From contig JANJGN010000002.1 in the NCBI GenBank assembly GCA_026770705.1, forward strand, positions 209,250,001-209,314,000: a stretch of 64,000 nt of DNA, read 5' to 3'. Shown in pieces: positions 9,726 through 56,874 of the stretch; within the stretch, counting starts at the first letter, position 1, and each line of letters begins with the position of its first letter. This DNA is from Isurus oxyrinchus (taxonomy: Eukaryota). The position numbers were made by a program, and so were the translations under genes. The notes below the pieces were generated by a model. The model ran no database searches. It saw only the letters and a program-made list of their open reading frames with translations, and had not been told where the DNA came from.

Positions 9726-9994
9726 GTGCTCTCCTCCGCCGATGCTGCCAGACCTGCTGAGTTTTTCCAGGTATTTCTGTTTCTGTTTTTGTTTTGCATT
9801 AATAGACACTTGGTGAGTTAACAAGGGTAAGATAAAAATTAGGCAGGGGGTCTATTCCTGATTATTTAATGGCTACAGTTTGAAAGTATATGTGTGGAGG
9901 TTGGAAGAGGACAGGACAGAACTTGTTTAAGGCTGAAACGCCTGAGGAGAGGGTAAAATAAATCAAGATGAGCAGAGATAAATATAACTAGATC

Positions 9995-18520: not shown

Positions 18521-20387
18521 ATGTCAACAGATCTGTATGTTTTGCATTTTCGGTTCTCATTTTCAGTATTTTTTTTACCTCTCCCATTTACTCAGCCGAA
18601 GTAATTTCTCAGACAACTCTGAATAAAACTGCAAACACCTGGCCAACATTTTACAACCTGAACTCAAGATTTTAAAAAACAAGCAACTGACAGCTACCAG
18701 GAAAAGGCCTCTTTATAAGTCTAGTGTTAAAGCACTTGGCAGCTGGATGTGACAGAAGGAGTCACAAAGGGAGCATCAGCAATAGAGCAACTAAGTTTAC
18801 AGTTTATAAAGCTTCCTTGATGGTATTTGGTGACCTCCCAATTAGCTTGTTAGGACAAGGCTTCACTATATTTAGAAAGTAAGAGATATTTTTACAATTC
18901 AGATTACATAAATTATATAATACAAAATGCATCACGCATGTGTGTAGATGATCTTTACTATAAACTGTGTGTGTGTCTGTCATCTACACAGGAGGGCGAA
19001 AGGAGAATTGAAGATATGGAGAAAAAGAAAGAGTAGGGGAAAATGCAGAGGATGAAGGGAGAGAGGATTGTTAAGTCTGTATGCAGAGTCAGTTTCCTTC
19101 TTTTTCATTTGTTCAGTTTTTTCTATCTGATTAGTCATTTTATTATTTTCATGACTCCTCAACTATTTTGTGCAAAACCTTTATTCCCCATTTTAATTTT
19201 CTTCCCAAACGAATTCCACTAAAAAGCTTCCACAGAACCATATTCTATCCAAACACATTCTACCATTTTGTTCTGATCCACTCCCTCCTGGTCTCTCTAC
19301 ACATCATCAGTAGTTTGTTCCTACTCCTGCAGAAAGAGAAAAAGGGAAAGTGAAAAGGAATGAGACAAAAGTAATGAGGAAGAAAGGGTAAGAGCAAAGG
19401 GCAAAGCTATATGATGATGATAAATAAACACAGAAGTTAATTATTTTTGGCATAACTACAGGGAAGAATAGAGTGGGAAAAACCTCAGTGGGGAGGGAAA
19501 GGGGTAACAGAGGAAGACCGAACATTCTCAGATACCCATTTGATGGGTGGGAGGGAGAAAAAGACACAAGTACACATACTGTGCAGGTGATGGAAGGGGT
19601 AAACAGAGGTTGATTGACCCTATTGGAGGTGTGAGGGGGGGAAAAGAGATAGCAAGACCCTATTTAGCAGCAGCAAAATCAATGAACAAATCTATAGTTC
19701 TGAATAGACTATATTGTATACAGAATCCTTGACAATGGCGTTTACACTTAGTGCCAAGTTACAAAACTGATCAGTCACAATACCAAAATCATGCCTATCT
19801 AACCGACTGTCTCCATGTCTAATTGTATAGGCATGCAGCCAGGGGTCTGGGAGCCAGGAGGATTTGGGGATGGGGGGGTGTGATTGTTGGTAGTATGATG
19901 GAGGGTGCTGGGATTTTAAGCATCCGACAGGCCGTAGGACTATTATTTTCCATAAAAAAAACTAGAGATGGAGCTACAGTACAACCAGAAAGTGTGGCCT
20001 TTTGTTTGCATACTACTTCTTTGGTTTCACTCAACTTCCAGGTGAGGAAGAATTTGACAAGTGGGGCAAAGGTGAGTTCAGTGCAGTATTTTGAATCAGT
20101 CCATGCATTTGTTGCAAGGAAAGATTGAGAGGGCCAGCCTTCACAATCTCTTTCATCAGTAGGCGGAGTGCAGATGCTTCACACAGAGTATTTTTCTTTG
20201 AAAGTCAGGAAACTAATTTAGGATTAAGTTGAAAAACTGTATCATTCATATGGTTCCTAAAGTATAGTCCAATGGAAGTCTTGAACATTCACTCAGTATT
20301 GTGAATGGGTATGATATTTAAATTTAATAAGTCTGAAATAGAATAAGAATCTTGCTCCCACCCACAAATGCCAGGCATACTTATCAT

Positions 20388-20541
20388 CTGGAAAAACTCA
20401 GCTTATATTTCACCTCTCTTCTATTTTCACTTAGTTCTGTTGAAGACTCATATGGACTCGAAACGTTAACTGTGTTCTTCTCCGCAGATGCTCCCAGACC
20501 TGCTGAGTTTTTCCAGGTATTTTTATTTTTATTTTTGTTTT
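20388..20541 (+). mobile_element. Short PLE pLTR insertion with 15-bp inverted stub and hammerhead-like motif (20433-20471)
   Basis: CTGGAAAAACTCAGC (inverted) is joined through CAGC to a direct pLTR end containing AGTTCTGTTGAAGACTCATATGGACTCGAAACGTTAACT. Confidence 0.85.
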
Positions 20542-21648
20542 GCAGTTTATTTTATGATCATCCAGTAGATGGCAGGATTCCACAAGGCAAGCCAGCTACC
20601 ATATTTCCCCCAACTTAAAGATAGAATACTGTACTTCAATTGAAGATTCAATATCTGAGGGGAGTTGGTGGTGATGGATTGGGGGGCAGGGGCAGGGTCA
20701 GGGGGAGGTGGCACATCTTGGGGGTACGCCCCAGTTACATTGCCCTGGAGCTCAGTAGTTACAGCCCAATGTTTTGAGTCCAGTATGACTCTTCTTCGGA
20801 ACACGGCACAAGGCGGCCTACTGTTGGCAATCATTCTGTATGATGTTACTCTGCCTATTTAATGGAGGTATTAACTTATTTAAAATGCACATGTTCATTT
20901 GCGAAGAGGAATGCTCAATATATTTGTTCCTCCATTATCAACAGTAATTTCTAACCTACATTGTTTTATTTGGCAATATTAAAAAGGTCTATTCTTCTCA
21001 TAATGGAAATAAAAGTCATAAGATGCTGCACTCACTAAGGAAACCAAAGCATAAAAAACATGGATTTAAGGAGCAGGTACAAGGAGCTACAGTTCTTTCA
21101 GCTGGTCTCCAGTCTGGGGTTTGCAATTTGTCAATCTCTTATTGATGGTTGTCACTCCTCACGTTTCCGTGATATAAATGAGTGGCTCGCTCCATAGTTA
21201 TTTTTGCTTCCAAAAATATACTTCATTCATAAAACTTCTAAAAATACATTACATGGTCGTTCAAAGTTGCATAAGGTGCAAAACCAAACCTGTTTCTTCC
21301 AATGTTGTAAGTTACTCAGGTTTACAAATACAGTTAATAATTACAATATTCATTACATGCAAAATATACAGCCTGAAAAGTTTTATCCTGTTTCCAGCCT
21401 CTCGGTACACCATGGCTGAAAAGCCTTAGATAGTAGCCTTTCCTCACTGCACCTCTGCAACAGCTGCCCCAAGCTTTACTGCATACCTCAGCATTTAGTC
21501 CTGGACCTTAGAATTTGCCAGTCTTGGGCACCTCTTTGCAACGTAAGACAAGCAAATTTCGGGCAGACCAAAGAGCGCCTTTTACCGAAATTATGGTCCT
21601 TCAGCCACAGGTGATGTTTATCTTGGTGTGCTTCCCTGGGAACTGCCA

Positions 21649-22767: not shown

Positions 22768-22974
22768 AGATAAAAACAAAAAAACTGCGGATGCTGGAAA
22801 TCCAAAACAAAAACAGAATTACCTGGAAAAACTCAGCAGGTCTGGCAGCATCGGCGGAGAAGAAAAGAGTTGACTTTCTGTTGAAGGGTCATGAGGACTC
22901 GAAACGTCAACTCTTTTCTTCTCCGCCGATGCTGCCAGACCTGCTGAGTTTTTCCAGGTAATTCTGTTTTTGTT
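22768..22974 (+). mobile_element. 207-bp non-coding fold-back PLE with one hammerhead-like core (22878-22912) in its loop
   Basis: Inverted arms. 15-bp TSD GTGAATGAAAAGCAG at 22753-22767 and 22975-22989. Confidence 0.92.
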
Positions 22975-25900
22975 GTGAATGAAAAGCAGGCTGGTTCCAT
23001 GAAAAAGAATGAACTCTGTGTTGTGAGACTTTTTCTTGCAGTTACATAATCTTGAGTTTTGATTCAATCCAGGCCCACAGGCTTGGCTATAGCTAAGTAA
23101 AATTATTTACAGAAATGTCACATTAGATTAAATGATAGATATTCCCATTTGAGAGGTGCTTTGAAGCAAATTCTTTTGCAGGTTCTCCAAGTAATTTTAT
23201 AAGTCACGATGGTCAGTTTGAAAGCTGACAGTGATAGACTGTAAAATAGAGAAAAAAAACAAGGGGAAAGGAGGAAGGAGAGAGTGAGATAGAGAGAGGG
23301 GTGGAGGGGGGGAGCGGGGGTGGAGAGAAAGAGCAAACAGAAATATAAATCAAGATTTGGGAGACAGAGGGAAGAAAAGGGGCAGACCGACACATATGTA
23401 CACACAGAAATAGACAGTAACAAAAAGTACTGAGTACTGGTGAAAGAACATGAGCCAAATGAACTAAAACAAAAGAATAAATACAGAAACAGCTATGAGC
23501 ACCAGATATAAAGGATACAAGAGTTGGAATTGCAGCTTTTCCCTCTCAGTAGGCATTCAGAGAAAATGTTTCAAAACATGAGAGAATATTAACACTTTGT
23601 AAGATTCAGATTTGTCATAAACAAACTCACTAGTAAATATTTGCTGTCTATTAAAAACAAGAATTAAAATTGCACTGTAATAATACTTCTCGCAGGCAAA
23701 CAACAAAATCTTATGCAAGTATTATTTTCTGGCTGCAGCCAAAGCAATCACAGGCTCGACTTTGACTCTAAATCAAAATATCAACCAAGCGCATCTTAAA
23801 CTCCAGCATAGAACATTCAATTGCGCTTTCAACTCTGTGCATTAAACAGTAAAGAGTAAGTTTACACTCTAAACATGTCTCAGGCCTCAATATTTCTAAT
23901 CCCAAAATGATCTTCACATTTTCAGCTTTGAATGCCTCCAGTACCCTTTCTACACTTGACGTAAAACCATTATATCCTATCATGAGAGCAGACAATAGGA
24001 TGCTGATGCCACATGGAGACACAAAATGCAGATATCCTTGTAAAGTTTACCATTAAGTTTGGCTTTCATTTAGCAGATAAGAAAGAAGCACCTGGGAGGG
24101 CTGGCAAATATTTAGAAATATGAAGGTTACAAAATACCTACTGTAATTATTTTACACAAAAAATATATTTTAATATAATAAAACCCAAAAATCACCTGAA
24201 TAGTAGATAACAAAACAGGGAGGGGGAGGGGTGTTAATATTCTGTTCTTCACAGGGACGGTGCCAGATCAAAGCCCATCCTGGTTCACAGTGTCATTTGC
24301 TCAATCCCCAAGCTTGAACCAGTGAAAATGTATTCTTCCCAAAGGGATCATGAGTTAATTATGCAACAGAGACTATATTCCATTTACAAAACCAACCCAC
24401 AGCAGTGAACTCATCTATGTTAATGTTGCAGTCATGCTGCAATGGAGTGTGTGCTTTAAGTTTGTAACTGAAAACAGCTGCCTGCCACTAATTGGGGAAA
24501 AATTAGGGAATTATTACAAGTGTGTAAAAACGCTGGATGTCCTGGCAGGAGAAGGAGAACAACAGGAATCTGCGTCTGTATTTTGCAGTCTTGTGAATAA
24601 ACCTAGATTAAGAATAAGACTGGCTTCAGATTCATCCTTTCCTCTATGTATGAACAGTGACTTTAACAATCCATAGGATATGCTGCCACCCAGACCAGGC
24701 CCGCAACTTTTATCACGATCTCCAACGAGAATCTCAAATTTTATTATGATCTGGTTACAGACAAGTAACTTTTGTTTTAAAGTGGCCAGAATTAGAAATC
24801 TCTGTTACTTACTAAGACGATAAAGTCACAAAATCCGTGGTTTGAAACAAACAGAAGAACTTTTATTATACAAAAGTCAGCAAAGCAAACAGTCAACACT
24901 ACGTACCTTAATTCTAGATGTTAGAGTTTAACATGAGATAAACATGAACTAACAGGCTCAGGCCCACTGTGACATGTCTCTCCCCCCACCACGGATGTGG
25001 CAAGACATTTAAATTTCCATTCAGTTCAGTGGGACCACAATATCCCACCGGGCAAGAGGAGCTGTAAAATCCTGGCCTGAGTTCACCAAATGCAAGTTTT
25101 AATAAATTAAACATATCAATAAAAGTATTGTTAAATAAAAAGATTATTTGTCACAATAATTCATGCCTTTCTACAAAGTTACATTTCTGTTTATCTGTTT
25201 TACTTGTGTGAGTTACTACAACTACCCATTAAATGAAGGATTAATTTGAGTAATCTTCGAGGGGTTAAGTCCCTTTGCACAAGGGGAGGAATGGCTAGAA
25301 TAAACTCTAGAAGTGTCACATACACAAAAAAAAACACTGGCAGAAAAAACATTCTTGCGGGCAGTGAAATTACCAATACAATATTCAGAAAAGATTTGGA
25401 AAATATTTCTTGGAGAATTATTGCTTGAAATGACACACATTACTGAGCACTAAAGGCCTGTTCCTGTTACAGAATTGAAGATGAAGACTGTAATTTAGAT
25501 TATTTGACAAATTCTAATGAGTATTTTTGAAAAATGTAAATTTCTCACATTAGAATGCAACTTAGTTCCAGATCTAAGAAACATTCCTTAATCACTACTA
25601 CAGTTTCAAAGCAACAGACAACACAAGAGAAAGGAGGAGAAAAGACAATTAGGCTCATCATTTACTGATAGGGAGGGGGGAAAATAAAAAAACACTCTTT
25701 CAATACTCCTGATCATTGTATCCATTGGCACTTGCCGAAAACTGCACATGTTGGTTTGGATCGAGATGGGCAGTCATGCAAACGCTACATGTGTAGTCTC
25801 ACTCATGACTAATAGGTGTTTGAATAAGGTATATCAGTATTCAGTATTTCCCCCACCACCAGCCACCAATCCCCCCAGTCTCCAACCCCTGTCAATTTAT

Positions 25901-34165: not shown

Positions 34166-34437
34166 GCATCCAGTTTTGGAGGTCATCTTAATTCATCTAT
34201 TTAGGAAAAAAAACTTCCCCCCCATGGCTTAGCAATAATTAAATGATTCCAGGATTTTACTTCCAATATCCCATCTAAATATCTATTCCAAGTGTGAAGA
34301 ACTTCTGATCATTAGGTGCATGTTTCTCTTTAGATAAAAACAAAAAAACTGCGGATGCTGGAAATCCAAAACAAAAACAAAAACAGAATTACCTGGAAAA
34401 ACTCAGCAGGTCTGGCAGCATCGGCGGAGAAGAAAAG

Positions 34438-34476
34438 AGTTGACGTTTCGAGTCCTCATGACCCTTCGACAGAACT
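34438..34476 (-). ncRNA. Minimal hammerhead ribozyme-like motif
   Basis: Reverse complement reads AGTT-CTGTCGA-A-GGGTC-ATGAG-GACTC-GAAAC-GTC-AACT. Confidence 0.75.
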
Positions 34477-34780
34477 TGAGTTCGAGTCCAAGAAAGAGTT
34501 GAAATATAAGCTGGTTTAAGGTGTGTGTGTGGGGGGCGGAGAGAGAGAGAGAGAGAAGTGGAGTGGAGTGGGGGTGTGGTTGTAGGGACAAACAAGCAGT
34601 GATAGAAGCAGATCATCAAAAGATGTCAACAACAATAGAACAAAAGAACACATAGGTGTTAAAGTTAAAGTTGGTGATATTATCTAAACGAATGTGCTAA
34701 TTAAGAATGGATGGTAGGGCACTCAAGGTACAGCTCTAGTGGGGGAGGGGAGAGCATAAAAGATGTAAAAAAATTTTTAT

Positions 34781-37215
34781 ATGAACACATAGGAACACAC
34801 TCGACCTCTCCCTCCAGCAGCACCGCCGTACCCTTTTTCAAAGTTGCACATGCCCCCAGTTTCATTTTATCCTTCGGCTCATCCGACGCCTCAACAAGAA
34901 ACTTTTTCTCTTTCTCTCAACTGCTAAGGAACGCAAGCTCCAACAACTCATCGACACCAACACCCATCTAGGACCCTCCACCCCGGCCTGTCAACTCCGT
35001 CCCCACCCCATCTTCCAATCCCAACCCCAGCCGTGCATTCACTATACCCCCTGACCTTCCCCTCTCCGATGCTGAACGTTCAGTGCTCAGCAAAGGACTT
35101 AGTTTCATACCCTTACGCCCTCACCTCAATGAATTTCGGGCTCGGCATGATGCTGAACTCTTCTTCCGCCGTCTTCGTCTCCGGGCTCACTTCTTTGGGC
35201 AGGAGTCCTCTCCCAGTTCAACGGATCCTTTTACCCATCTCCAATATTCTCCCTCCACCTGGAACCCTCCCTCTGGATTCTTAACTTCTCTTGATCTTTT
35301 CATTGAGAACTACCGGCACGACATTAGTCATCTCAATTTCTCTGCTCCTCTCACCCAATCTAACTTGTCTCTCTCTGAACTTACTGCACTCCATTCTCTC
35401 AGGTCCAACCCTGACATTGTCATCAAACCCGCTGACAAGGGTGCTGTTGTTGTCTGGTGCACTGACCTCTACCTCGCGGAGGCTGAGCGTCAACTCGCAG
35501 ACACTTCCTCCTACCTCTCCCTGGACCATGACCCCACCACTGAACATCAAGCCATTGTTTCCAGGACTGTCACTGACCTCTGAGGATCTCTCTCTCATAG
35601 CTTCCAACCTGACAGTCGCTCAACCTCGGACGGCCCGCTTCTATCTCCTACCCAAAATCCACAAACAGAACTGCCCCGGTAGACCGATCGTCTCAGCTTG
35701 CTCCTGCCCCACAGAACTCATTTCTCGTTATCTTGACTCCCTTCTCTCTCCCCTTGTCCAGTCCCTTCCCACCTACATCCGTGATTCCTCTGACACCTTA
35801 CGTCACATCAACAATTTCCAGTTCCCTGGCCCCAACCGCTTCCTCTTCACCATGGACGTCCAATCCCTCTACACCTCCATCCCCCACCAGGATGGTCTGA
35901 GGGCCCTTAGCTTCTTCCTCGAACAGAGGCCCGAACAATCCCCATCCACCACTACTCTCCTCCGTCTGGCTGAACTTGTTCTCACGCTGAACAATTTCTC
36001 CTTCAACTCCTCTCACTTCCTCCAAATGAAAGGTGTGGCTATGGGTACCCGCATGGACCCCAGCTATGCCTGTCTCTTTATGGGGTATGTGGAACATTCC
36101 TTGTTCCAGTCCTACTCCGGCCCCCTTCTCAACTCTTTTTCCGGCACATCGATGATTACTTCGGTGCCGCTTCATGCTCTCGTCGGGACTTGGAAAAATT
36201 TATTAATTTTGCTTCCAATCTCCACCCCTCCATCATTTTCCCATGGTCCATCTCTGACACTTCCCTTCCCTTCCTTGACCTCTCTGTCTCAATCTCTGGT
36301 GATAGACTGTCCACCAATTTACATTACAAACCCACCGACTCCCACAGCTAGCTCGACTACAGCTCCTCACACCCCGCTTCCTGTAAGGACTCCATCCCAT
36401 TCTCTCAGTTCCTTCGCCTCCGTCCCATCTGTTCCGATGATGCTACCTTCAAAAACAGTTCCTCTGACATGTCCTCCTTCTTCCTTAACCGAGGTTTTCC
36501 ACCCACGGTCGTTGACAGGGCCCTCAACCGTGTCCGGCCCATCTCCCGCGCATCTGCCCTCACGCCTTCTCCTCCCTCCCAGAAACATGATAGGGTCCCC
36601 CTTGTCCTCACTTATCACCCCACCAGCCTCCGCATTCAAAGGATCATCCTCCGCCATTTCCGCCAACTCCAGCATGATGCCACCACCAAACACATCTTCC
36701 CTTCACCCCCCTTATCGGCATTCCGTAGGGATCGCTCCCTCCGGGACACCCTGGTCCACTCCTCCATCACCCCCTACTCCTCAACCCCCTCCTATGGCAC
36801 CACCCCATGCCCACGCAAAAGATGTAACACCTGCCCCTTCACTTCCTCTCTCCTCACCGTCCAAGGGCCCAAACACTCCTTTCAAGTGAAGCAGCATTTC
36901 ACTTGCATTTCCCCCAACTTAGTCTACTGCATTCGTTGCTCCCAATGTGGTCTCCTCTACATTGGAGAGACCAAACGTAAACTGGGCGACCGCTTTGCAG
37001 AACACCTGCGGTCTGTCCGCAAGAATGACCCAAACCTCCCTGTCGCTTGCCATTTCAACACTCCACCCTGCTTGCTTGCCCACATGTCTGTCCTTGGCTT
37101 ACTGCATTGTTCCAGTGAAGCCCAACGCAAACTGGAGGAACAACACCTCATCTTCCGACTAGGCACCTTACAGCCTTCCGGTCTGAATATTGAATTCAAT
37201 AACTTTAGGTCGTGA
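34781..37215 (+). pseudogene. PLE reverse transcriptase / GIY-YIG endonuclease ORF, disrupted
   Basis: LSKGLSF, IKPADKG, FYLLPKIHK..PGRPIVS, MDVQSLYT, GVAMGT, FRHIDD (YIDD variant), Cys linker PCPRKRCNTC, and LVYCIRCSQCGLLYIGETKR..RFAEH. Frameshifts near 35580 and 36125, and a stop near 36350. Confidence 0.95.
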
Positions 37216-37607
37216 GCTCCCTCCCCCATCCCCACCCCCTTTCTGTTTCCCCCTTTTTTCCCCCTTTTTTTTCCTATAAATTTTATAGATTTTTCTTTTC
37301 CCACCTATTTCCATTATTTTTAAATATTTTAAAATCTTTTATGCTCCCCCCACCCCCACTAGAGCTGTACCTTGAGTGCCCTACCATCCATTCTTAATTA
37401 GCACATTCGTTTAGATAATATCACCAACTTTAATTTTAACACCTATGTGTTCTATTGTACCATTGTCACTGACATCTTTTGATGATCTGCTTCTATCACT
37501 GCTTGTTTGTCTACACAAGCACCTCTGTCTCTCTCTCTCTCTCCGCCCCCCCCACACACACACCTTAAAGCAGCTTATATTTCAACTCTTTCTTGGACTC
37601 GAAATCA

Positions 37608-37646
37608 AGTTCTGTCGAAGGGTCATGAGGACTCGAAACGTCAACT
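37608..37646 (+). ncRNA. Minimal hammerhead ribozyme-like motif
   Basis: AGTT-CTGTCGA-A-GGGTC-ATGAG-GACTC-GAAAC-GTC-AACT in the 3' pLTR. Confidence 0.75.
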
Positions 37647-38959
37647 CTTTTCTTCTCCGCCGATGCTGCCAGACCTGCTGAGTTTTTCCAGGTAATTCTG
37701 TTTTTGCATGTTTCTCTTTCACCATTTTGAACGTGTGCCTTCTTGTTACACCACCAAAATTGTGTCCGTTATATTATTCTAGATTTAACTTTTACATGTC
37801 ACTTACTATCCTATACAGTTCTGAGGCTCTTTGCTAGTCATCTCTTTTCAAGACCCAAGGATTCTTCAGCATTCAATTTGTTAAGTTTATTGCTTCTCCA
37901 CTGATTAAATGGGACATATTAAATGGCAGGTCTCCAAACATTCCTAGATCTCCAAGATAAATTTGGATCTTCTTAAATGAAATGTGCCTTTCTTGTAAGA
38001 AATTCCTGGCAGCACTAGGATTGTTATATATTTGTGTGAATGCAAGTACCATGGCGTTTTTGATAATGGATCATGTCTGTGTAATATGCCCATACAAACA
38101 GCAGATGGTGTGTTTATACTTTACAGGGCAAATACGAAGTGAATGGTTTTGATTAATTCCCCAGATGGGTGACACACAAACCAAAGACAGACAGAGAAAT
38201 AAAAAAGCCATAGACCTCACACACAAACGTACTACTGCTAATGTAGGTAAACACAAACTAACCACTGTGATAACAGATACCTCATTTTCTGCATTTTTTA
38301 TCATTAAGGCTGCTTCTTTTTAAATCACATGACATCACTTCAAAGACTGCCCCACTGCTACTACTACATGTATATTTAGATTTCAAAATACACTCTCCAT
38401 TAATGGCTAGTGCCACATCAAAGTTTGATGCTTGAACAATAACTTGCACTAATGTAGGGCCTCTCCTGTTAAAAAAAATAACCACAAGGGAGAGAAGGGG
38501 TGTAAAGGGAAGACAGAAAATTGAAGGGAAGGTACAGCCAAAAATAGATTTTTAAAAGACTTTTGAAAGAAGATGAATGAGCAGTAAGGTCAGTAGTTTT
38601 GGAAGGCAATCCTAAAGAGCATCAGCATAGTAACTGGAAGATCAGCTTCTGATGTGGAAGTGAAGGAATTGGGGAGTTAGGGACCGGAGAGTATAGGCTG
38701 GTAGATATAATTGCAGAATTCAGTATGAGTGCAACAAAGCCATGGTGGATTCTGAAAACATGAATGAGGACTTTAACATCAATTGTTTGAGACATCCAAT
38801 AATGTGAGGTACCAGAGGGAACAGTACACTTGTGAAACAGTACTCTAAAGTATAACTTGGAGCTGCCATTCACTAAGATGAAACAGTGTTCTAGAAAATG
38901 GGAGTCAAACTTTAATATGTGAGCCACATACTGCCCTTGATCCCTAGAAATTAGATCAT

Positions 38960-39200: not shown

Positions 39201-39738
39201 TGTGCAGATATGTAAGTTTGAGAGCCAAAGTACTGGTCGTTAGAAAAGCGGATCTAGAAACACTGTTTTGTACTTCTGAAATTCAGAACAATTTATTCCT
39301 CAAGTAAAATTCCAGAATAGCCATTCATTCCCACCATTCAGTTTTGGCCTATAACATTTTCACACTGGGCATTTTCTTGGACCCAGCAGTACAGTAATCA
39401 TCACATTTCAAGGAACCTTTGCGGCAACATGCAAATAAATATTCAAAAAAATTCTGATTAAGTATGAATTGGACACGATTGTTAGCTTATTCAATAGAAA
39501 ATTATTCACGGTATCTGAACAGCCTGTCCTGCTAACTTGCCCTGGCAGGAAAGCCCATTCTAGCAAACTGCTTTGTGTTGTGTTTGACAACTTCTTACTG
39601 TCTCAACATTGAAGCAATCTGCAAAATTAATCTAAATTGATTGACCCATCTTATATATACTAGCCACCATCCAATCTAAATTTCTAATTGGTTATGTACA
39701 GTACACTTTGTGTTATGCAGCACCCTACCAACGAGAAT

Positions 39739-39846
39739 CAAGTTCTGTCGAAGGGTCATGAGGACTCGAAACGTCAACTCTTTTCTTCTCCGCCGATGCT
39801 GCCAGACCTGCTGAGTTTTTCCATGTAATTCTGTTTTTGTTTTGTT
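39739..39846 (+). mobile_element. Solo PLE pLTR end beginning at the hammerhead-like motif (39741-39779)
   Basis: Nearly identical to the end of 37606-37704. Possible 6-bp TSD GAGAAT (39733-39738 and 39847-39852). Confidence 0.88.
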
Positions 39847-41340: not shown

Positions 41341-42514
41341 CCATCTCCCGCACGCCTTCTCTTCCCTCCCAGAAACATGATAGGGTCCCCCTTGTCCTCA
41401 CTTATCACCCCACCAGCCTCTGCATTCAAAGGATCATCCTCCGCCATTTCTGCCAACTCCAGCATGATGCCACTACCAAACACATTTTCCCTTCACCCCC
41501 CCCCCGGCGGCATTCTGTAGGGATCGCTCCCTCCGGGACACCCTGGTCCACTCCTCCATCACCCCCTACTCCTCAACTCTCACCTATGGCACCACCCCAT
41601 GCCCACGCAAAAGATGTAACGCCTGCCCCTTCACTTCCTCTCTCCTCACCAAGGGCCCAAACACTCCTTTCAAGTGAAGCAACATTTCACTTGCATTTCC
41701 CCCAACTTAGTCTACTGCATTCGTTGCTCCCAATGTGGTCTCCTCTACATTGGAGAGACCAAACGTAAACTGGGCGACCGCTTTGCAGAACACCTGCGGT
41801 CCATCCGCAAGATTGACCAAAACCTCCCTGTCGCTTGCCATTTCAACACTCCACCCTGCTCTCTTGCCCACATGTCTGTCCTTGGCTTGCTGCATTGTTC
41901 CAGTGAAGCCCAACGCAAACTGGAGGAACAACACCTCATCTTCCGACTAGGTACTTTACAGCCTTCCGGACTGAATATTGAATTCAACAACTTTAGGTCC
42001 TGAACTCCCTCCTCCATCCCCACTCCCTTTCTGTTTCTTCCCCCTTCCTTTTGTTTTTTTCCAATAAGTTATATAGATTTTTCTTTTTCCCACCTATTTC
42101 CATTATTCTTAAATATTTTTAAATCTTTTATGCTCCCCCCACCCCCACTAGAGCTATACCTTGAGTGCCCTACCATCCATTCTTAATTAGCACATTCGTT
42201 TAGATATATATCACCAACTTCAACACCTATGTGTTCTTTTGTTCTGTTGTCTGTGACATCTTTTGATGATCTGCTTCTATCACTGCTTGCTCATCCCTAC
42301 AACCACACCTCTCCCTCCACTTCTCTCCCCCTACCCAACCACCACCCCCCCCACCCCCACACACACACACCTTAAACCAGCTTATATTTCACCCCTTTCT
42401 TATTTCTACTTAGTTCTGTCGAAGGGTCATGAGGACTCGAAACGTCAACTCTTTTCTTCTCCGCCGATGCTGCCAGACCTGCTGAGTTTTTCCAGGTAAT
42501 TCTGTTTTTGTTTT
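41341..42514 (+). mobile_element. 5'-truncated PLE (GIY-YIG part plus pLTR with hammerhead-like motif 42412-42450), no inverted arm
   Basis: ORF 41674-42003 LVYCIRCSQCGLLYIGETKR. 11-bp TSD ACCCTATTCTC at 41330-41340 and 42515-42525. Confidence 0.94.
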
Positions 42515-44515
42515 ACCCTATTCTCTTTTACAGCAGCTTCTTAACAATGGTCATGGGCCTTCAGCGATTCATGAACTACAAACTGCAGACACTTCTTCCA
42601 TTCAGTAACCTTAACTAGTCAGCCCTGCATGGGAAATCCATGCTCAGAATTGCATCTGTCCAACTGCATCATTTTGATGTTAAACTGAAAGCTACTTGCT
42701 AGACATGGGCTCATTTTCCTACACCACTAGCTCCACCTACAAATTACTTCATTCATCAAAGGTTCTAGGACCACGTATATCTTCATGTTATTTGCAAACT
42801 TGTGGATTAATTCACTTCCCCCACCACTGCAACGGTTCAAGAAGGCAGCACACCACCACTTTCTCAAAGGCAATTAGGAATGGGCAATAAAAGCTGGTCT
42901 AACAAGAGATGCCCACATCCCCTGAATGAATTAAAAAAGGAAACAAAACTTTCATCTAGTTCATTGATAAAGCTGGTGAAGAACAATGACCTCAGTACCA
43001 ATCTCTACAGGTACTCATCAACCACCACATAAATCTGTCACTTTGAATAACTATTTACTGTGTACGTAAATGCAATGAAATGTTCAATCCAACCCGCCAA
43101 TTCCACAAAACATAATGATGCTCAACAGCCTTTTTGTGCAGCACTTCATCAAAGGCTTTTCAATTCACAAAGTCTATCAGGGTTTTTACCTCGGCAAAGG
43201 ATTTGATCAAGTTCATGAGATATGACCTTTTCAGAAGCCATGCTGCAAACGCCTAACAGTTCCTCAGTTTCATGTACATACAACATGTCTCTAATTATAC
43301 CTTCCAGCTAAGTACCTATAACAGAAATTCAAATAATGAGCATATAGTTTCCTGGTTTTAACTTTCTCCCCTTTTAAAACATAGGGAATGCATCAGTCTC
43401 TCCTGTCCATGGAAATAATCCCTTGACTTCAGCAAGTTTCTAAATATATGAGCCACTACATTAGCACATGGGAAATTTTCTTCTTTCTGGCATTAACATT
43501 AAAAAGCCACATTCTATGATAGATCCATTTAAAAAGTAAAATAAATTCCATCTTCAATTTTAAGTTACATGCTAGACAAATAATGCGAGAGAGGTCTTTG
43601 TGAGATATGCTGAAAGTAAAATGTATTTTAAACATCATACCTTTTTAGATGTAGTAATATTAACCAAGGGGAACTAGACTTGCCAACAGCCTGCAGCCAT
43701 GCTCGAGGTCTTCAGTGAGGAATTGTGCTATAGTTGTAACTTTAACCCTGATTTCCTGTCATGCTGCAATATTATTCACAATTCTGTAACTGATTTCTGA
43801 ATTATGAACTATGACTGAAAATGTGGTCTGGTGTGCACAGTTCACTTAAAGGAACAAGATTTGCAAGGAAAATGTGCCCTGAAAGGCGCTATGCCACGTT
43901 AGTAAGTAGAATTGGCCATAACTATAGCATCTGGTCATTTGACACTAGATATGTAAAACTTTATCCAAACAATTCTTCAATTAAAAACATACAAAGAAAG
44001 CAATCCAAAGGTTTGTACTGGAGAAAAGAGATGTCTTATGGCTGTACAAATTCAGCCTTTGGTCACCGCTGGGGCAAGAAGTGGAGTTTCAGAACAGACA
44101 ATCCAGGGGACACAAACCTCCGCAACACCACTTCTCACCCAAAAATGTTTTTTTACAACAGAGCTCGTCAATAACTTGTCCTGAATATTACTGGAAGTTT
44201 TGCACTGGGTCCATGCACATTCAAAACTGAATTAATTCTGTCATTTCCTATAGATTGCAGACAGAGAACACTTTCATCACATCAGCTCCAGACAGAGCTG
44301 GGGGGGCACCAACCCTTATCAAATGTTAATTATGGATGTCATAAACTAGTGGAGTGTTCTAGCACTCATGATGTTGATAATGTGCTATAATGGGTGAAAA
44401 TGCTTGAGATTTTTAATTGGAGGTAAAAAAAAAGTTTTAATTAAAAATTCGTTGTTTGCAAATTCTGTGCTCATCAAGGAAACAAACATCCAGTGCTAGG
44501 GGAAATTAAATTAAA

Positions 44516-44752
44516 AACAAAAAATAAAAACAAAAAAACTGCGGATGCTGGAAATCCAAAACAAAAACAGAATTACCTGGAAAAACTCAGCAGGTCTGGC
44601 AGCATGGGCGGAGAAGAAAAGAGTTGACGTTTCGAGTCATCATGACCCTTCGACAGAACTTGAGCACTCAAGTTCTGTCGAAGGGTCATGAGGACTCGAA
44701 ACGTCAACTCTTTTCTTCTCTGCCGATGCTGCCAGACCTGCTGAGTTTTTCC
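44516..44752 (+). mobile_element. 237-bp non-coding fold-back PLE with two opposed hammerhead-like motifs (44622-44660 minus, 44671-44709 plus)
   Basis: Palindrome centred on TTGAG-CA-CTCAA. 13-bp TSD AAATTAAATTAAA at 44503-44515 and 44753-44765. Confidence 0.93.
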
Positions 44753-45691
44753 AAATTAAATTAAAGTCAAACTTCCTTCTATTCTGTGTCTCCAAAGTAT
44801 CCCAACCTCAAAACATGAAGTTTCCCATTTCTTAAATCAGCTATCTCATGGCCTCCAACTGGGATTCATAGTTTAGTGACAATTAAGGCATATTATTCTT
44901 AGAATATCCTTCCCCCATTAAGTACCCATATCAGACTCAATCCTTTAAAGTGTCTCAAGGGTGGTTATTTTAATTTTAAAACTGAGAGTTACAGTAATCA
45001 GTACAAAGAGCAATACTTCAATTGGTGTAATGTGCCAATGTGGAGGGGTTGAAATAATAAGTGGCTGTCTCTTACTGTTAGATCAACTTTAGCATTCAGC
45101 CTACTCAAATACATGGTAATCCACTGGCTTTGTTTAAGGAAATACCACTCAGTGCGTGAGCTCATTGCATACCACCCTTTACATCAGATTGACAGCCAAT
45201 AAACAGACCAAAAAAAAACTGACTCTGGCAATATCCCTGTAGGATCCCGAACACGGCAGGGCAACCTACACACCATAAGCACTGTCACTTCAAATGCAGC
45301 CCACATTACAGCATAAATTACTCCAATTTTGTTTCAACTCCAAATAAAATCTCTTCTGTGACAAAACACAGCTGCAAAGAATTCCCTCAATAATACAAAG
45401 CACAAGTCATGTTGAACAATGTCTTTTGATGTTGATCACTGAATGCCAAATCCAGAAGGTTGTGACCATGAGCCCCCTGCCTCCATACACATTCAAACTC
45501 ATTCTTCCACATTCAGTGAGTTTGGGTAGATTTCCCTGCTGGAGCATGTGACAGTGGGGCTTTATTCCAAGCAGAGGACGCATGATACAACTACACCTGT
45601 TTTACTTTGGCTATACATAGTCATGCCACAAAGTAGCCTGATAGTATCTTCTGGAGAGATTCACAAACAGGCCATATTCGGAAGAAAAAAG

Positions 45692-47720: not shown

Positions 47721-48915
47721 CATCTCTCCTGGGTAACTATTCTGATAAGTGAGTCAGAACCCTCTGAAGTATCCTCCAACTCACAGTTGGAGACTTTGTC
47801 GGGTTCTGGGTGGAGGGAAATTGCCATCAGAAGTTGAAACATCCCAGGCAACTCCCGCAGAATCCTTGCGTTGGGGCTTCCACAGGATCTCCCGGTGCAT
47901 CTTCTGGGGTACCTCCGGGGTACAACCATCTAGAAGCCGCAAGATCTGGGCCTTTGCCTCTATGTATAAAGGGTAGCCTTCTGAAGGCCTTATTAATTGC
48001 ATTCTCAACTTTCCCGACCACCCTCAACAATTTGTGCATATATAATGCGAAGGTCTCCCCCCCCTTTAAAGGGCTGTTAATTTGTTTGTTAGTTAATTTG
48101 TTTATTTTATGGATTTTTAAAGGAACATATAACCCCTGGTGCCTCTGCTCCTGCACTCCCTTTCGAATAGTATTATTTTATATTGCTTTTTCTCATTCTT
48201 TCAATGAAAATGCACCACCTGCAAGCTCCCCTCCTAATTACATGCCATCACAACTTGGAATATATGGCCATTCCTTCATCATCACTGGGCCAAAATCATG
48301 GAAATCCCCATATAACAGGACTATATGTGTGCCTGCACCATCCAGAAAGGAGTCCAAAAAGGCGGCTCACCACTATATTCTTAAGGGCAATAAAAGATTG
48401 GAAGTGAATACTGACATTGTCAGCAAAGCCCACATCCCATGAATGAATAGAAAGCTGAATTATAGCATGCATTTTTTTGTTTTAAATGATTCTTTTATGT
48501 TATTACTTTTCCCAATTTTGATTTGGTGAGGTGGTCTTGTGGCTGTAGGTAGCATCCCTGCCTCTGCACCAGAATCTCTGGATTCAATTGCCCCTCTGGG
48601 GCTTGTTGGACCTGAAAGGAGCATTCATAACACAGTTCAACAGATTGGTAACCAGCCTGCTAATCCTTTCAACACTTCCCCACTATTCCCCAACAAAACA
48701 AACAATTGGTAATTGTTTCATGATAGTTAAAAAACAGATAAAAACAGAACCAACAATTGCTCCCACTGGAATTTCAATGAGAAACACTAAACATTCGAGT
48801 AAACCTTACACACATCTCAGGTATAATGTTTAAACATTACAGTCAGCATTGTCAAGGTCAGGTCACAGGAAACAGTGAGCATCTGTAATGAAAACACTAC
48901 AAAGATTGCAACTAA

Positions 48916-49447
48916 GATAAAAGCAAAAAACTGCGGATGCTGGAAATCAACAACAAAAATACCTGGAAAAACTCAGCAGGTCTGACAACATCTGTGGAGA
49001 GGAACACAGTTAATGTTTCGAGTCCGTATGACTCTTCAACAGAACTAAGGAAAAAAGAAGAGGTGAAATATAAGCTGGTTTAAAGAGGGGGTGGGACAGG
49101 TAGAGCTGGATAGAGGGCCAGTGATAGGTGGAGATAGCCAAAAAATGTCATAGACAAAAGGACAAAGAGGTGTTGAAGGTGGTGATATTATCTAAGGAAT
49201 GTGATAATAGGCAACATTAAGGGTAGAAAGCAGGACGAGCAAGCCCTAGTGGGGGTGGGGTGGGGGGGAAGGGAATCGAAATAGGCTAAATGGTAGAGAT
49301 AAAACAATGGATGGAAATACATTTAAAAATAATGGAAGTAGGTGGGAAAAGAAAAATCTATATAAATTATTGGAAAAAAGGGCATCGGAAAGGGGGTGGG
49401 GATGGAGGAGAGAGTTCATAATCTAAAATTGTTGAACTCAAAATTCA
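48916..49447 (-). mobile_element. Isolated inverted PLE arm (complete pLTR plus last ORF codons) with hammerhead-like motif 49008-49046
   Basis: Reverse complement of EFNNFRL-stop plus pLTR with full tail. Stem II here is GAGTC/GACTC. No TSD found. Confidence 0.9.
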
Positions 49448-51140: not shown

Positions 51141-52355
51141 CATACAAACAGGGAGCAGGGGTAGGCCATTTGGATCCTCAAGCCTTCTCTGCCATTCAAT
51201 AAGATCATAGCTGATCTGACAGTAACCGCAAACCTGCATCCCCGATAATCTATCACCCCCTTGCTTACCAAGAATCTATCCATCACTGCGTTAAAAATAT
51301 TCAAAGACTCTGCTTCTACCACCTTTTCAGGAAAAGTTCCAAAGGCTCACGACCCTCTGAGAGAAACAAGTCGCCTCATCTCTGTTTTAAATAGGTGACT
51401 CTTCTTATTTTTAGACAGTGACCCCTCATTCTAGACTCTCCCACAAGAGGAAACATCCTTTCCACATCCACCCTGCCAAGACCCCCTCAGGATCTTATAT
51501 GCGTCAATCAAGTCGCCTCTTACTCTTCTAAACTCCAGTGGATACAAGCCTAACCTGTCCAGCCTTTCCTCATATGACAACCAGCCCATTCCTGGTATCA
51601 GTCTGGTAAACATTCTTTGAACTGCTTCCAATGCACTCACATCCTTCCCCAAATAAGATGACCAACACTGGACTCAACCCTCCAGTTGTGGTCTCACTGA
51701 AGCATAACCTCCCTACTTTTGTATTCAGCTGCCCTCGCAATAACATTCTATTAGCTCTCCCAATTGCTTGCTGTACCTGCATACCAACCCCCTGCGATTC
51801 ACACACTAAGACACTCAGATCCCTCTGTACCTCAGTTCTGCAATCTCTCACCATTTAGATAATATGCTTCTGTTTTATTCTTCTTGCCAAAATGGACAAT
51901 TTCACATTTTCCTACATTATGCTCCAATTGCCGGATCTTTGCCCACTTACTTAATCTATCCATATCTTTTTGTAGCTTCCTTATGTCCTCTTCACAACTT
52001 ACTTTCCTACTTATCTTTGTGTCATCAGCAAATTTGGCAACCATCCTATCCATCCCTTCATCCAATTCATATATATAAATTGTAAACAGTTGAGGTCCCA
52101 GCACTGATCCCTGTGGCACACCACTCGTTACACCTTGCCAACCTGAAAAAGGCTCATTTATTCCTACTCTCTGCTTCCTGTTGGTCAGCCAATCTTCTAC
52201 CTATGCCAATATGTTACCCCTTATGCCATGAGCTTTTATTTTATGCAATAACCTCTGATGTGGCACTTTATTAAGTGCCTTCTCTATATCTAAGTACAGT
52301 ACATCCACCGGTTCCCCTTTATCCACAGGGGAACTTCCCAAAGAACTCCAATAAC
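51141..52355 (-). mobile_element. CR1 LINE RT fragment with 3' UTR
   Basis: PQGSVLGPQLFTIYIYELDEG, AKFADDTK, RLIPGMGWLSYEERLDRLGLY. Confidence 0.93.
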
Positions 52356-54559: not shown

Positions 54560-56874
54560 CAGTCTGCTGTTTCGCAGGTGTCTCTGCGAAAGCAAGGGGA
54601 GATAATTAGTGCATGGCAGTGGTCTGTGAAACAGGACACATCAGTCATAGCATGGTTGTATGACAGATGTTGCACTTCTGGATCCTCGCTTGGTACAGCA
54701 CCGCTGACCTCACCGTCAGCACAGGAGCAGTCCAGATCCTCGCTGGACAGCTGGATGGCTCTGTTTTCAAAGTCCATGAGGACCTTCATTTCAGTCATTC
54801 CTCCACCAGTCTGCGACCTCTCCCTGTTGTTGTGTGCCAGCTTGTCCTGCATGAATAGTGATGGAGAAAGAGTAAACAGGATGCCTGTCTGGCCAGATGA
54901 TAAGTATAAAAGCAAAAAACTGCAGATGCTGGAAATCCAAAACAAAAACAAAAATACCTGGAAAAACTCAGCAGGTCTGGCAGCATCTGCGGAGAGGAGC
55001 ACAGTTAACGTTTCGAGTCCAAATGACCCTTCAACAGAACTAAGTAAAAATAGAAGAGAGATGAAATATATAGATGAAATATCAGCTCCTCACACCCCGC
55101 TTCCTGTAAGGACTCCATCCCATTCTCTCAGTTCCTTCGCCTCTGTCGCATCTGTTCTGATGATGCCACTTTCAAAAACAGTTCCTCTGACATGTCCTCC
55201 TTCTTCCTTAACTGAGGTTTTCCACACACGGTCGTTGACAGGGCCCTCAACCGTGTCTGGCCCATCTCCCAAGCATCCGCCCTCACACCACCTTCTCCCT
55301 CCCAGAAACATGATAGGGTCCTCCTTGTCCTCACATATCACCCCACCAGCCTCCACATTCAAAGGATCATCCTCTGCCATTTCCACCAACTCCAGCATGA
55401 TGCCACCACCAAACATATCTTCCCTTCACCACCTCCACCCCCACCCCCCCTCCCCCCCGGCAGCATTCCGCAGGGATCGTTCCCTCCAAGACACCCTGGT
55501 CCACTCCTCCATCACCCCCTATACCTCAACCCCCTCCCATGGCACCTTCCCATGCAACTGCAGAAGGTGCAACACCTGCCCCTTTACTTCTCCTCTCCTC
55601 ACCGTCCAAGGGCCCAAACACTCCATTCAAGTGAAGCAGCATTTCACTTGCACTTCCCTCAATTTAGTCTACTGCATTCATTGCTCCCAATGCGGTTTCC
55701 TCTACATTGGAGAGACCAAACGCAGATTGGGTGACCGCTTTGCAGAACACCTTCGGTCTGTCCGCAAGCATTACGCAGACCTCCCTGTCACTTGTCATTT
55801 CAACACTCCACCCTGCTCTCATGCCCACATGTCCGTCCTTGGCTTGCTGCATTGTTCCAGTGAAGCTCAATACAAACTGGAGGAACAGCACCTCATCTTC
55901 CGACTAGGCACTTTACAGCCTTCCAGACTGAATATTGAGTTCAACAATTTTAGATCATGAACTCTCTCCTCCGTCCCCACCCCCTTTCCAATTCCCCCCC
56001 CCACCTTTTTTTTCCAATAATTTATATAGATTTTTCTTTTCTCACCTATTTCCATTATTTTTAAATGTATTTCCATCCATTGTTTTATCTCTACCTTTTA
56101 GCCTTTTTTGATTCCTTCACCCCACCCCCACCAGGGCTATCTGTAACTTGCCTGTCCTGCTTTCTACCCTTATTTAACACATTCCTTAGATAATATCACC
56201 ACCTTCAACACCTCTTTGTCCTTTTGTCTGTGACATCTTTTGGTTATCTCCACCTATTACTGGCCCTCTATCCAGCTCTACTTGTACCACCCCCCTTAAA
56301 TCAGCTTATATTTCACCTCTCTTCTATTTTTACTTAGTTCTGTTGAAGGGTCATTCGGACTCGAAACGTTAATTGTGCTCCTCTCCGCAGATGCTGCCAG
56401 ACCTGCTGGGTTTTTCCAGATGTTAAGTATGCCTGGCAAATGTGGGTGATGAGTGGTCCCATAGACAGGATGAGGACAATGAAGGTGTGTGTGAGAGTGA
56501 ATGGTGATGTCCCTTGAACTGGCAATGAATGAGGGCCCTGTGGATGTGCAACGGGTTTGTGCTTGTGTGAGTTGAGAGTGATAAGAAGAGTGACTTAGCC
56601 AGGCAAAATGAAGGAAATCATTCATCCTCTTGTGGCACTGCGTGGCTGTCCTCTTTTGCAGGGCATTGGCGCTAACCACCACTGCCACTACCTCCCAAGC
56701 CGGAATAGTGATGTTGCTGCCCATCCTGCAGCCAGAGCGGGGGTGGGGGATATCATGGCGGGCCTCCTCGGCGTCCAAAAGACACTTGAGAGGCACATCA
56801 TTGAACACAGAGGCTGCAGTCTTTTTGCCTTTCAGGGCCTTGTTTTCCATGCAGCAGTCCTGGGCTGGAGGCAC
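54560..56874 (-). pseudogene. Harbinger Myb/SANT-like DNA-binding protein, two exon remnants (about 56597-56874, and 54846 downward)
   Basis: LLDAEEARHDI...AWEVVAVVVSANALQKRTATQCHKRMND, then acceptor TTCATGCAG|DKLAHNNRERSQTGGG. The PLE sits in the intron. Confidence 0.75.
54908..56415 (+). mobile_element. 5'-truncated PLE with inverted arm (hammerhead-like motifs 55003-55041 minus, 56336-56374 plus)
   Basis: GIY-YIG end LVYCIHCSQCGFLYIGETKR. 15-bp TSD CCAGATG(A/T)TAAGTAT at 54893-54907 and 56416-56430. Confidence 0.94.

What the first reader, a model, noticed from the sequence alone, without database searches (positions are those of the whole stretch)
44516..44752. Tiny palindromic element made only of two opposed ribozyme motifs
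Seen: 237 bp, near-perfect hairpin with a 2-nt centre, one hammerhead-like motif on each strand 10 bp apart, a 13-bp TSD and no coding sequence. Inference: transcription in either direction yields a ribozyme motif plus its antisense. This is a rod-like RNA resembling retrozyme or viroid-like architecture, or a Dicer/ADAR substrate. It may be a one-off truncated insertion or a self-propagating non-autonomous family.
Basis: partly seen in the sequence, partly recalled or inferred. Interest (0 to 1): 0.7.

Follow-up and report, generated by a model that had tools for sequence, protein, structure and literature searches.

The report
Mirror-image stub of Penelope retrotransposon
This 237-base DNA hairpin is real but ordinary: it is two short, head-to-head copies of the end of a very abundant Penelope-type jumping gene, one of thousands of such stubs in this genome that likely each arose as a separate insertion, and its two ribozyme-like motifs are predicted not to fold or cut.

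Summary
Real, but not a new element. The 237-bp insert and its 13-bp TSD are confirmed. The hairpin covers only 176 bp (87-bp arms); the other 62 bp are unpaired and include the 34-nt 'tail' typical of Penelope-like elements (PLEs). Both arms are the hammerhead-bearing pLTR end of a Neptune/Nematis-type PLE (55,900 exact copies of the motif; an intact RT + GIY-YIG ORF found elsewhere in the genome). The exact junction occurs once in 4.98 Gb. However, 4,681 look-alike hairpins exist. In 50 sampled there were 31 different centres and all TSDs differed; copies sharing a centre carry different subfamily marks. They are therefore recurrent insertion products, not an amplifying family. Inverted pLTR + one-sided tail + TSD, and opposite-strand hammerhead pairs, are published. 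In a read-through RNA the hammerhead helices have pairing probability 0.000, and the core carries U at A6. One residual point of interest: arm 5' ends pile up at the hammerhead's 5' edge (31 of 94 arms within 11 nt), about 30 nt below a TATA-like box. This suggests run-off at the transcript start with both arms primed on one RNA (inferred). The scan already found this structure, and this idea, at other loci of this genome.

The parts
44503..44515 (.). Left target-site duplication AAATTAAATTAAA (13 bp)
   Evidence: Exact repeat of 44753-44765; modal TSD of the family is 13-14 bp
44516..44523 (-). 8 extra nt at the 3' end of the tail arm, resembling a slipped repeat of the T-rich tail end
   Evidence: Sequence; 13-nt-spaced repeat D1; origin inferred
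44524..44557 (-). 34-nt PLE 'tail', present on this arm only
   Evidence: Unpaired in the fold; tail motif on exactly one arm in 49 of 51 hairpins; lies just upstream of the ORF start in full units
44516..44664 (-). Long arm: 5'-truncated pLTR end of the PLE, offsets -5 to +143 (0 = G of GTTCTG at 44659)
   Evidence: 94.6% to the end of the long window copy at 34334-34480
44622..44660 (-). Minimal type-I hammerhead-like motif, core CUGUCGA (U at position 6, 44653); private loop-2 change at 44639; nominal cut between 44626 and 44625
   Evidence: layout compared with PMC4209133; activity untested
44665..44666 (.). Centre of the hairpin (CA): best parsed as one non-templated base (44665) joining two arms that start at offsets -5 and -6
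   Evidence: upstream variant ...GAACTCAAG seen in long copies; 20-mer across it unique in G000
44666..44752 (+). Short arm: same pLTR end, offsets -6 to +80, no tail, about 20 nt shorter than the usual tail-less end near +100
44671..44709 (+). Minimal type-I hammerhead-like motif, core CUGUCGA (U at position 6, 44678); helix II GGGUC/GACUC, helix I AGUU/AACU, palindromic ACGU in place of helix III; nominal cut between 44705 and 44706
   Evidence: exact 34-mer in 55,900 places; activity untested
44753..44765 (.). Right target-site duplication AAATTAAATTAAA
34334..37706 (+). Long relative in the window: inverted pLTR with tail, broken RT/GIY-YIG ORF, tail-less pLTR, 15-bp TSD. Same architecture with longer arms (parent family, not shown to be the donor)

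Best explanation
This is a 237-bp insertion made of two 5'-truncated, head-to-head copies of the hammerhead-bearing end (pLTR) of a Penelope-like retroelement, with the 34-nt tail on one arm and a 13-bp target duplication; it likely arose once, as a dead-end product of ordinary transposition, and not as a copy of a self-propagating hairpin. Likely mechanism (all inferred): the element's RT-endonuclease cut both target strands 13 bp apart and primed cDNA from each nick on the same RNA, one at the end of the tail and one at or inside its start. Both cDNAs ran off the RNA's 5' end, probably the transcription start at the hammerhead's 5' edge, and were joined there with one added base. The hammerheads are passengers from the pLTR; in a read-through RNA they would be locked in an 87-bp duplex. 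Shown: anatomy, family identity, uniqueness of the junction, diversity of look-alikes, pile-up of 5' ends. Inferred: twin priming, run-off at the transcription start, inactivity of the ribozyme.
For: Family: arms match PLE ends in the window at up to 98-99%; a tandem copy has an intact 918-aa ORF with RVT_1 (E 6.9e-08, above cut-off) and GIY-YIG (E 8.9e-04, below cut-off) right after the same hammerhead and tail. One-off: junction 20-mer 1 match in 4.98 Gb. Recurrent class: 4,681 hairpins centred at the hammerhead's 5' edge, 3,485 centred within it, 209 centred about 40-55 nt upstream. In the first 50 plus this one: 31 centres among the 50, 51 distinct TSD strings, 42 of 51 with TSD of 8 bp or more, mostly 13-15; tail on exactly one arm in 49 of 51. 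Same-centre copies differ in subfamily marks and orientation (TTCAA 4 / TTGAA 2; A 4 / T 1; TT 1 / AA 1). One template: arms share 34 minority variants versus 2.8 +/- 1.7 in 2,000 shuffled pairings, max 10; 5' ends of paired arms correlate, rho 0.76, n = 36. Not simple fold-back: in 16 of 36 one-tail pairs the tail arm is shorter at its 5' end, so each arm holds sequence the other lacks. Pile-up: 31 of 94 arms start at -8..+2 versus 17 in the next 62 nt upstream; 9 of 30 in a downstream-anchored sample. TTATATTT sits at -34. Literature: two RT start sites bound the tail and both strands are cut and extended (PMC11167929); inverted pLTR + tail + TSD (PMC3846280; PMC8557442). Hammerhead helix probabilities 0.000 in both whole transcripts.
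Against: No RNA 5'-end data: only assembled contigs were available, and they cannot show starts. In D. virilis the Penelope promoter is reported as internal and TATA-less, with the start 46 bp above a 75-bp intron whose 3' end maps to helix I, so a start at the hammerhead edge is not general. The short arm here ends at +80, not at the usual +100 site (13 of 51 short arms end before +95), so for this copy fold-back synthesis or end trimming cannot be excluded. Shared arm variants could also come from gene conversion between arms. Small clusters with the same centre, orientation and similar tail exist (L006/L047, L010/L035), so rare re-mobilisation is not excluded. Only 50 of 4,681 hairpins were examined, all from one contig; the two 5'-end samples overlap.
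Confidence: 0.88

Rival explanations
1. Self-propagating non-autonomous palindromic family (MITE/SINE-like or retrozyme-like): the hairpin RNA is itself re-transposed by the PLE protein.
For: 4,681 similar hairpins; some centres recur (6, 6, 5 and 3 of 50); the unit keeps the tail where RT starts, so it has the cis signal in principle.
Against: This junction is unique. Recurrent centres sit on different subfamily haplotypes and in both orientations. The same 5' end appears in solo arms and in arms paired with much shorter or longer partners, and arm lengths form a continuum up to full length. No promoter-like sequence is included: the TATA-like box at -34 is cut off.
Confidence: 0.04
2. Same origin, but the second arm is made by fold-back (self-priming) of the first cDNA or of an antisense template, as proposed for A. 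vaga Penelope, rather than by a second priming event on the RNA.
For: Near-symmetric centres and shared variants; palindromes at inverted junctions were read as self-priming in PMC3846280; the short arm of this copy does not end at the usual +100 site.
Against: In 16 of 36 one-tail pairs neither arm contains the other, for example 34334-37706, where the tail-less arm is about 2.9 kb and the tail arm about 0.45 kb. Most short arms end at a fixed site near +100, which matches a second RT start.
Confidence: 0.2
3. The pile-up of 5' ends marks an RT stall at the hammerhead fold or an RNA-processing site (splice acceptor AG|TT at offsets -1/0), not the transcription start.
For: AG|TT follows a pyrimidine-rich tract; in D. 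virilis the intron end maps to helix I. Many junctions also lie inside the motif.
Against: Solo arms ending there abut their TSD or flank directly, with no constant upstream exon. The three joints listed from RNA-like contigs have no GT..AG ends, and loose ends before offset -1 agree only 0.46-0.56. The motif's fold is weak (-5.9 kcal/mol), and the nominal cut site is +33, not -1.
Confidence: 0.25
4. The locus was kept or co-opted as a source of dsRNA (Dicer/ADAR substrate) with a host function.
For: An 87-bp, 97% duplex would form in any read-through RNA. PLE copies give small RNAs in A. vaga.
Against: It is one of thousands of equal hairpins. Its three arm mismatches are uncompensated. No host-gene domain was found in 106 of the 108 window ORFs of 85 aa or more that were scanned, though short exons would be missed.
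Confidence: 0.04

Closest known systems
Inverted-pLTR insertions of EN+ Penelope-like elements with one-sided tail and TSD (Pen2a_Av/Pen2_Av of Adineta vaga, PMC3846280; general scheme in PMC8557442 Fig. 2 legend; D. virilis Penelope, PMC2377424 Fig. 1 legend)
   Same: Head-to-head pLTR copies, a 30-40 nt tail on one side only (34 nt here), a TSD around the whole unit, a palindrome at the inverted junction.
   Different: Here no ORF remains between the arms, and the short form is present in thousands of copies with a preferred mirror point; the cited examples are few and mostly ORF-containing.
Minimal type-I hammerheads (min-HHR) in metazoan pLTRs (Cervera & de la Pena 2014, PMC4209133)
   Same: Short helix I, one extra nt between positions 9 and 10.1, G10.1-C11.1, palindromic 15.2-16.2 with no helix III. 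That paper also reports dual min-HHRs on opposite strands about 100-700 bp apart in S. mansoni.
   Different: The motifs are 10 nt apart. The core has U at position 6 across the family (192 of 198 motif counts CTGTCGA, 5 CTGTTGA, 1 CTGCTGA, 0 with A; overlapping loci counted more than once). Helix II is 5 bp.
PAc (Poseidon of Anolis carolinensis; Frangieh et al. 2024, PMC11167929)
   Same: Two preferred 3' ends bounding a tail downstream of the HHR; AT-rich target; both strands cut and extended; HHR cleavage dispensable in vitro.
   Different: PAc is Poseidon clade, with the ORF starting inside the HHR. Here the ORF starts about 173 nt after the HHR start and has the CX4CxxC linker of Neptune/Nematis. 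The parts read do not treat inverted products or a 5'-end hot spot.
Non-LTR retrozymes (PMC7229834; bioRxiv 10.64898/2026.07.22.740005)
   Same: Short, non-coding, carries type-I hammerhead motifs, related to PLE pLTRs.
   Different: Retrozymes are head-to-tail tandem repeats with same-strand HHRs that release monomers and circles. This unit is head-to-head, its motifs are antisense to each other, and it cannot release a unit-length monomer.

Membership tests
EN+ Penelope-like element insertion (inverted pLTR type) | Sequence is the pLTR end of an element encoding RT plus C-terminal GIY-YIG | tested here: met
   Arms match 34334-37706 and the L062 tandem units; 918-aa ORF with RVT_1 above cut-off and GIY-YIG E 8.9e-04 just below cut-off; another window copy passes the GIY-YIG cut-off
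EN+ Penelope-like element insertion (inverted pLTR type) | Inverted 5'-truncated copy adjacent to the 5' end | tested here: met
   Head-to-head arms; 39 such pairs involve 56 of 94 sampled arms
EN+ Penelope-like element insertion (inverted pLTR type) | 30-40 nt tail at one end only | tested here: met
   34 nt at 44524-44557; one-sided in 49 of 51 hairpins
EN+ Penelope-like element insertion (inverted pLTR type) | Target-site duplication around the whole unit | tested here: met
   13 bp; 42 of 51 with 8 bp or more. The empty pre-insertion allele was not seen.
Neptune/Nematis-type PLE | CX2-5CxxC linker before the endonuclease, plus CCHH motif | tested here: met
   CPRKRCNTC and YCIRCSQCGLLYIG...H...H in P0001, against the definition in PMC8557442
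Neptune/Nematis-type PLE | Phylogenetic placement of the RT in Neptune versus Nematis | not tested
   No reference PLE set was fetched, no tree built
Minimal type-I hammerhead (min-HHR) | Helix I and II, extra nt after position 9, G10.1-C11.1, palindromic 15.2-16.2 | tested here: met
   Constrained fold and sequence against PMC4209133
Minimal type-I hammerhead (min-HHR) | Canonical core CUGANGA...GAAA...UH | tested here: not met
   CUGUCGA: U at position 6 in both arms and family-wide. A6C is reported to lower activity strongly in Mg2+; A6U is not mentioned in either paper.
Minimal type-I hammerhead (min-HHR) | Self-cleavage (as dimer or protein-assisted) | not testable with these tools
   Needs an in vitro assay; folding predicts both helices absent in the hairpin RNA
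Non-LTR retrozyme | Head-to-tail tandem units with same-strand HHRs | tested here: not met
   Head-to-head, opposite strands against the definitions
Non-LTR retrozyme | Expressed as unit-length linear or circular RNA | tested here: inconclusive
   Only contigs of runs guessed to be RNA; no listed piece spans the locus
Self-amplifying non-autonomous family (MITE/SINE-like) | Many copies with the same internal junction at different TSDs | tested here: not met
   1 match for this junction; recurrent centres on mixed haplotypes and orientations
Viroid-like rod RNA | Circular RNA replicon with ribozymes active in each polarity and no genomic insertion footprint | tested here: not met
   TSD-flanked genomic retroelement end; ribozyme helices masked in both polarities. 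Circularity itself not testable here.

The most novel reading that the evidence does not exclude
The mirror point marks the 5' end of the Penelope transcript. These thousands of hairpins would be fossil products of a dimeric RT-endonuclease priming twice on one RNA, at the two ends of the tail, and running off its start. They would then give a genome-scale readout of the still unexplained step that makes inverted PLE insertions, in a family that amplified to over 100,000 ends with a non-canonical (U6) hammerhead core.
Probability: 0.45. Interest if true: 0.45.

Novelty: new member of a known kind. Interest (0 to 1): 0.18.

Why it matters
The locus itself matters little: it is one decaying insertion among thousands. 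The class has modest value. How PLEs make inverted insertions is described as unresolved in the papers read, and this family offers thousands of young junctions, an intact ORF and clear predictions (5' ends at -8..+2, two 3' ends, 13-15 bp stagger). It also warns that opposed hammerhead pairs in such genomes can look like viroid or retrozyme RNAs in sequence-only scans. If many of the roughly 8,000 short hairpins counted lie in introns, they would be a large unplanned source of dsRNA; this was not tested.

Tried and rejected
Rfam: no family at gathering score in the window; sub-threshold miRNA-precursor hits are generic hairpin matches and were rejected. RNA evidence: 24 runs listed, all as contigs, only 1 on record as RNA. 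Runs X1 and X9 (guessed RNA) had no cover on the unique flanks while X19 and X22 (kind unknown) covered most of them; no listed contig spans the element or has 31 nt on both sides of a border. This is no evidence for or against transcription, editing or presence in other individuals. Laying four guessed-RNA runs on a pLTR-ORF junction showed no start pile-up (contigs cannot show it) and three joints, none with GT..AG ends. Splice-acceptor origin of the hot spot: considered and ranked lower. Cap-derived G at the junction: considered; the G/C at the commonest asymmetric centre lies on either arm, so no conclusion. Host-gene context: 106 of 108 ORFs of 85 aa or more were scanned (two low-complexity ORFs at 17927-18672 left out); only retroelement domains were hit. 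Pfam did not detect RT in the broken window ORF 35285-36886; RT was shown on the intact L062 copy. Literature searches for a shark-specific description (Penelope, shark, palindrom, hammerhead; Penelope-like, hammerhead, inverted, pLTR; Penelope, pLTR, transcription start, promoter, initiator) listed none by title or abstract start; the library omits most subscription papers and Repbase/Dfam, so this is not proof of absence.

Full report
OBSERVATION. The insert 44516-44752 is 237 bp and lies between two exact 13-bp repeats, AAATTAAATTAAA. The inverted repeat is 44578-44664 / 44667-44753: 87 nt, 97% complementary, 2-nt centre. It folds at -169.3 kcal/mol, z = -21.9. The left 62 bp are unpaired, so the hairpin is not the whole element. 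A 39-nt hammerhead-like motif lies on each strand, 10 nt apart. Rfam has no hit at gathering score and only generic hairpin hits below it.

WHAT IT IS MADE OF. The arms match many places in the window; 13 motifs of this type lie in 64 kb. One is a 3.4-kb insertion at 34334-37706 with an inverted, tail-bearing end, a broken ORF with a GIY-YIG match (E 1.9e-04) and a tail-less end. In G000 (4.98 Gb) the 34-nt motif occurs exactly 55,900 times and a 30-mer further downstream 113,780 times. Locus L062 holds head-to-tail units of 3,353 and 3,340 bp. The second has an intact 918-aa ORF starting 173 nt after the motif, with RVT_1 (E 6.9e-08) and GIY-YIG (E 8.9e-04, under cut-off), a CX4CxxC linker and a CCHH motif. 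By the definitions in PMC8557442 (passages) this is a Neptune/Nematis-type Penelope-like element; no tree was built. That the host is a cartilaginous fish is my recollection of this repeat and is also stated in earlier scan notes; it was not tested. With offset 0 at the G of GTTCTG, the long arm is -5 to +143 on the minus strand, including a 34-nt tail (44524-44557) and 8 extra nt. The short arm is -6 to +80 on the plus strand. One base at the centre is not templated.

The junction 20-mer occurs once in the genome. Hairpins of the same kind with a centre of up to 30 nt number 4,681. I fetched the first 50 listed, all on contig C1, and analysed them with this locus. There were 31 different centres among the 50, 51 different best TSD strings, and 42 of 51 TSDs of 8 bp or more, mostly 13-15. 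The tail was on exactly one arm in 49 of 51, and on neither in 2. Recurrent centres (6, 6, 5, 3, 2, 2, 2 copies) mostly sit on different subfamily variants and tails, and three of the five asymmetric classes occur in both orientations relative to the tail. That fits repeated independent formation at a preferred point, not copying of a master. Two pairs (L006/L047, L010/L035) share centre and orientation, so rare re-mobilisation is not excluded.

HOW THE ARMS RELATE. Within insertions the two arms share 34 minority variants (23 of 51 insertions) against 2.8 +/- 1.7 for shuffled partners, maximum 10 in 2,000. This locus shares none; its three differences are private and uncompensated. For a sample not chosen for being a hairpin I took 94 of the first 100 places (3 in the reference locus and the last 3 were left out). 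These gave 39 head-to-head pairs and 38 unpaired arms. In 36 of 39 pairs one arm had the tail. The tail arm was shorter at its 5' end in 16, longer in 6 and equal within 3 nt in 14; the 5' ends correlate with rho 0.76. In the 16, each arm has sequence the other lacks, so neither is a plain DNA copy of the other. Both probably come from one RNA, although gene conversion could add to the shared variants. This fits PMC11167929 (parts 1-2 of 4 read): a PLE protein cut and extended both strands, RT started at two sites bounding the tail, and hammerhead cleavage was not needed. PMC3846280 (passages and Discussion) instead reads junction palindromes as self-priming; that remains a rival, most of all for this copy, whose short arm ends at +80 rather than near +100.

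WHY SO MANY ARE TINY. Of the 94 arms, 31 start within -8..+2 and 17 in the next 62 nt upstream (p about 1e-14). That sample needs an intact motif, so I also took the first 30 places of the downstream 30-mer: 9 start at -8..+2, 7 at +3..+35, none at +36..+60, 2 at -9..-70 and 12 further upstream (p 2.6e-4 against the downstream side). The two samples overlap. Genome-wide, hairpins centred at the edge, inside the motif and about 40-55 nt upstream number 4,681, 3,485 and 209; the three patterns cover subfamilies unequally. A TATA-like TTATATTT starts at -34 in most long arms. From general knowledge of TATA spacing this would put a start near -3. Run-off at the transcript's 5' end is therefore my preferred, inferred reading. 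Support: a TATA and Inr in the A. vaga pLTR. Against: an internal TATA-less promoter further upstream in D. virilis (PMC2377424, passages). RNA data could not decide.

THE RIBOZYMES. The motif has the min-HHR layout of PMC4209133 (parts 1-2 of 4 read), which works, weakly, only as a same-strand dimer. That paper already notes pairs on opposite strands about 100-700 bp apart. Here the core has U at position 6 in both arms and across the family. A6C lowers Mg2+ activity strongly (PMC7151607 and PMC3088659, passages); neither mentions A6U. In either read-through RNA, helices I and II have probability 0.000; in the isolated arms helix II is 0.13-0.37 and helix I under 0.06. Non-LTR retrozymes are same-strand tandem repeats (PMC7229834, passages; bioRxiv 10.64898/2026.07.22.740005, part 1 of 5 and passages), which this is not. 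No supplements were read; those of PMC4209133 and of the preprint (closed) may list cartilaginous-fish motifs.

CONTEXT. Pfam scans of 106 of 108 ORFs of 85 aa or more found only retroelement domains. Whether the locus lies in an intron is unknown.

EARLIER NOTES. My reading, including the run-off idea, was entered before any note was shown. The scan had reported the same structure at several other loci of this genome, the fixed start (e1-9883823), the transcription-start idea (e1-9269521), priming from both target ends (e1-9502768) and the altered core (e1-9904347). These are unchecked AI notes and are not counted as support.

VERDICT. It is a dead-end, head-to-head pLTR insertion of a known kind (confidence 0.88 for identity and one-off origin; about 0.45 for the full twin-priming and run-off mechanism). 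Interest 0.18.

Noticed in passing
window:22770-22977: A second mini-hairpin of the same family, about 205 bp, 15-bp TSD GTGAATGAAAAGCAG; its tail arm stops inside the hammerhead near the nominal cut site.
   Followed up: partly
window:9231-9798: Older-subfamily symmetric inverted pair with about 280-bp arms, tail on one side, 14-bp TSD.
   Followed up: partly
window:34334-37706: Near full-length PLE insertion: inverted pLTR with tail, broken RT/GIY-YIG ORF, tail-less pLTR, 15-bp TSD.
   Followed up: yes
window: 9291-9768, 20433-20545, 22770-22980, 34334-34481, 37605-37706, 39738-39844, 42412-42514, 48914-49046, 54906-55041, 56336-56419: 13 hammerhead-type motifs of this family in 64 kb, including the two of the finding; 7 CTGTTGA and 6 CTGTCGA cores.
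   Followed up: partly
L062:2908-9800 (G000:C1, about 462,200-469,100): Head-to-tail array of 3.34-3.35 kb units; the second unit has an intact 918-aa RT + GIY-YIG ORF, so the family was recently active.
   Followed up: yes
L034 (right arm, about 130 nt after the centre): The tail arm is followed directly by a second same-strand hammerhead-to-tail unit, a mini head-to-tail tandem of about 135 nt that is closer to a retrozyme layout than the finding is.
   Followed up: no
L082:3783-8017: Three separate mini-hairpins within 4.3 kb, two of them about 530 bp apart.
   Followed up: no
L062:6241-6260 region and long arms: The young subfamily carries a partial duplicate of the hammerhead's 3' half (GGACTCGAAATCAA) just upstream of the motif; meaning unknown.
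   Followed up: no
window:50038-50406 (-), 51835-52200 (-): RVT_1 fragments of another retroelement, probably a LINE.
   Followed up: no
window:34052-34096: A more diverged short hairpin-like stub of a related PLE end.
   Followed up: no
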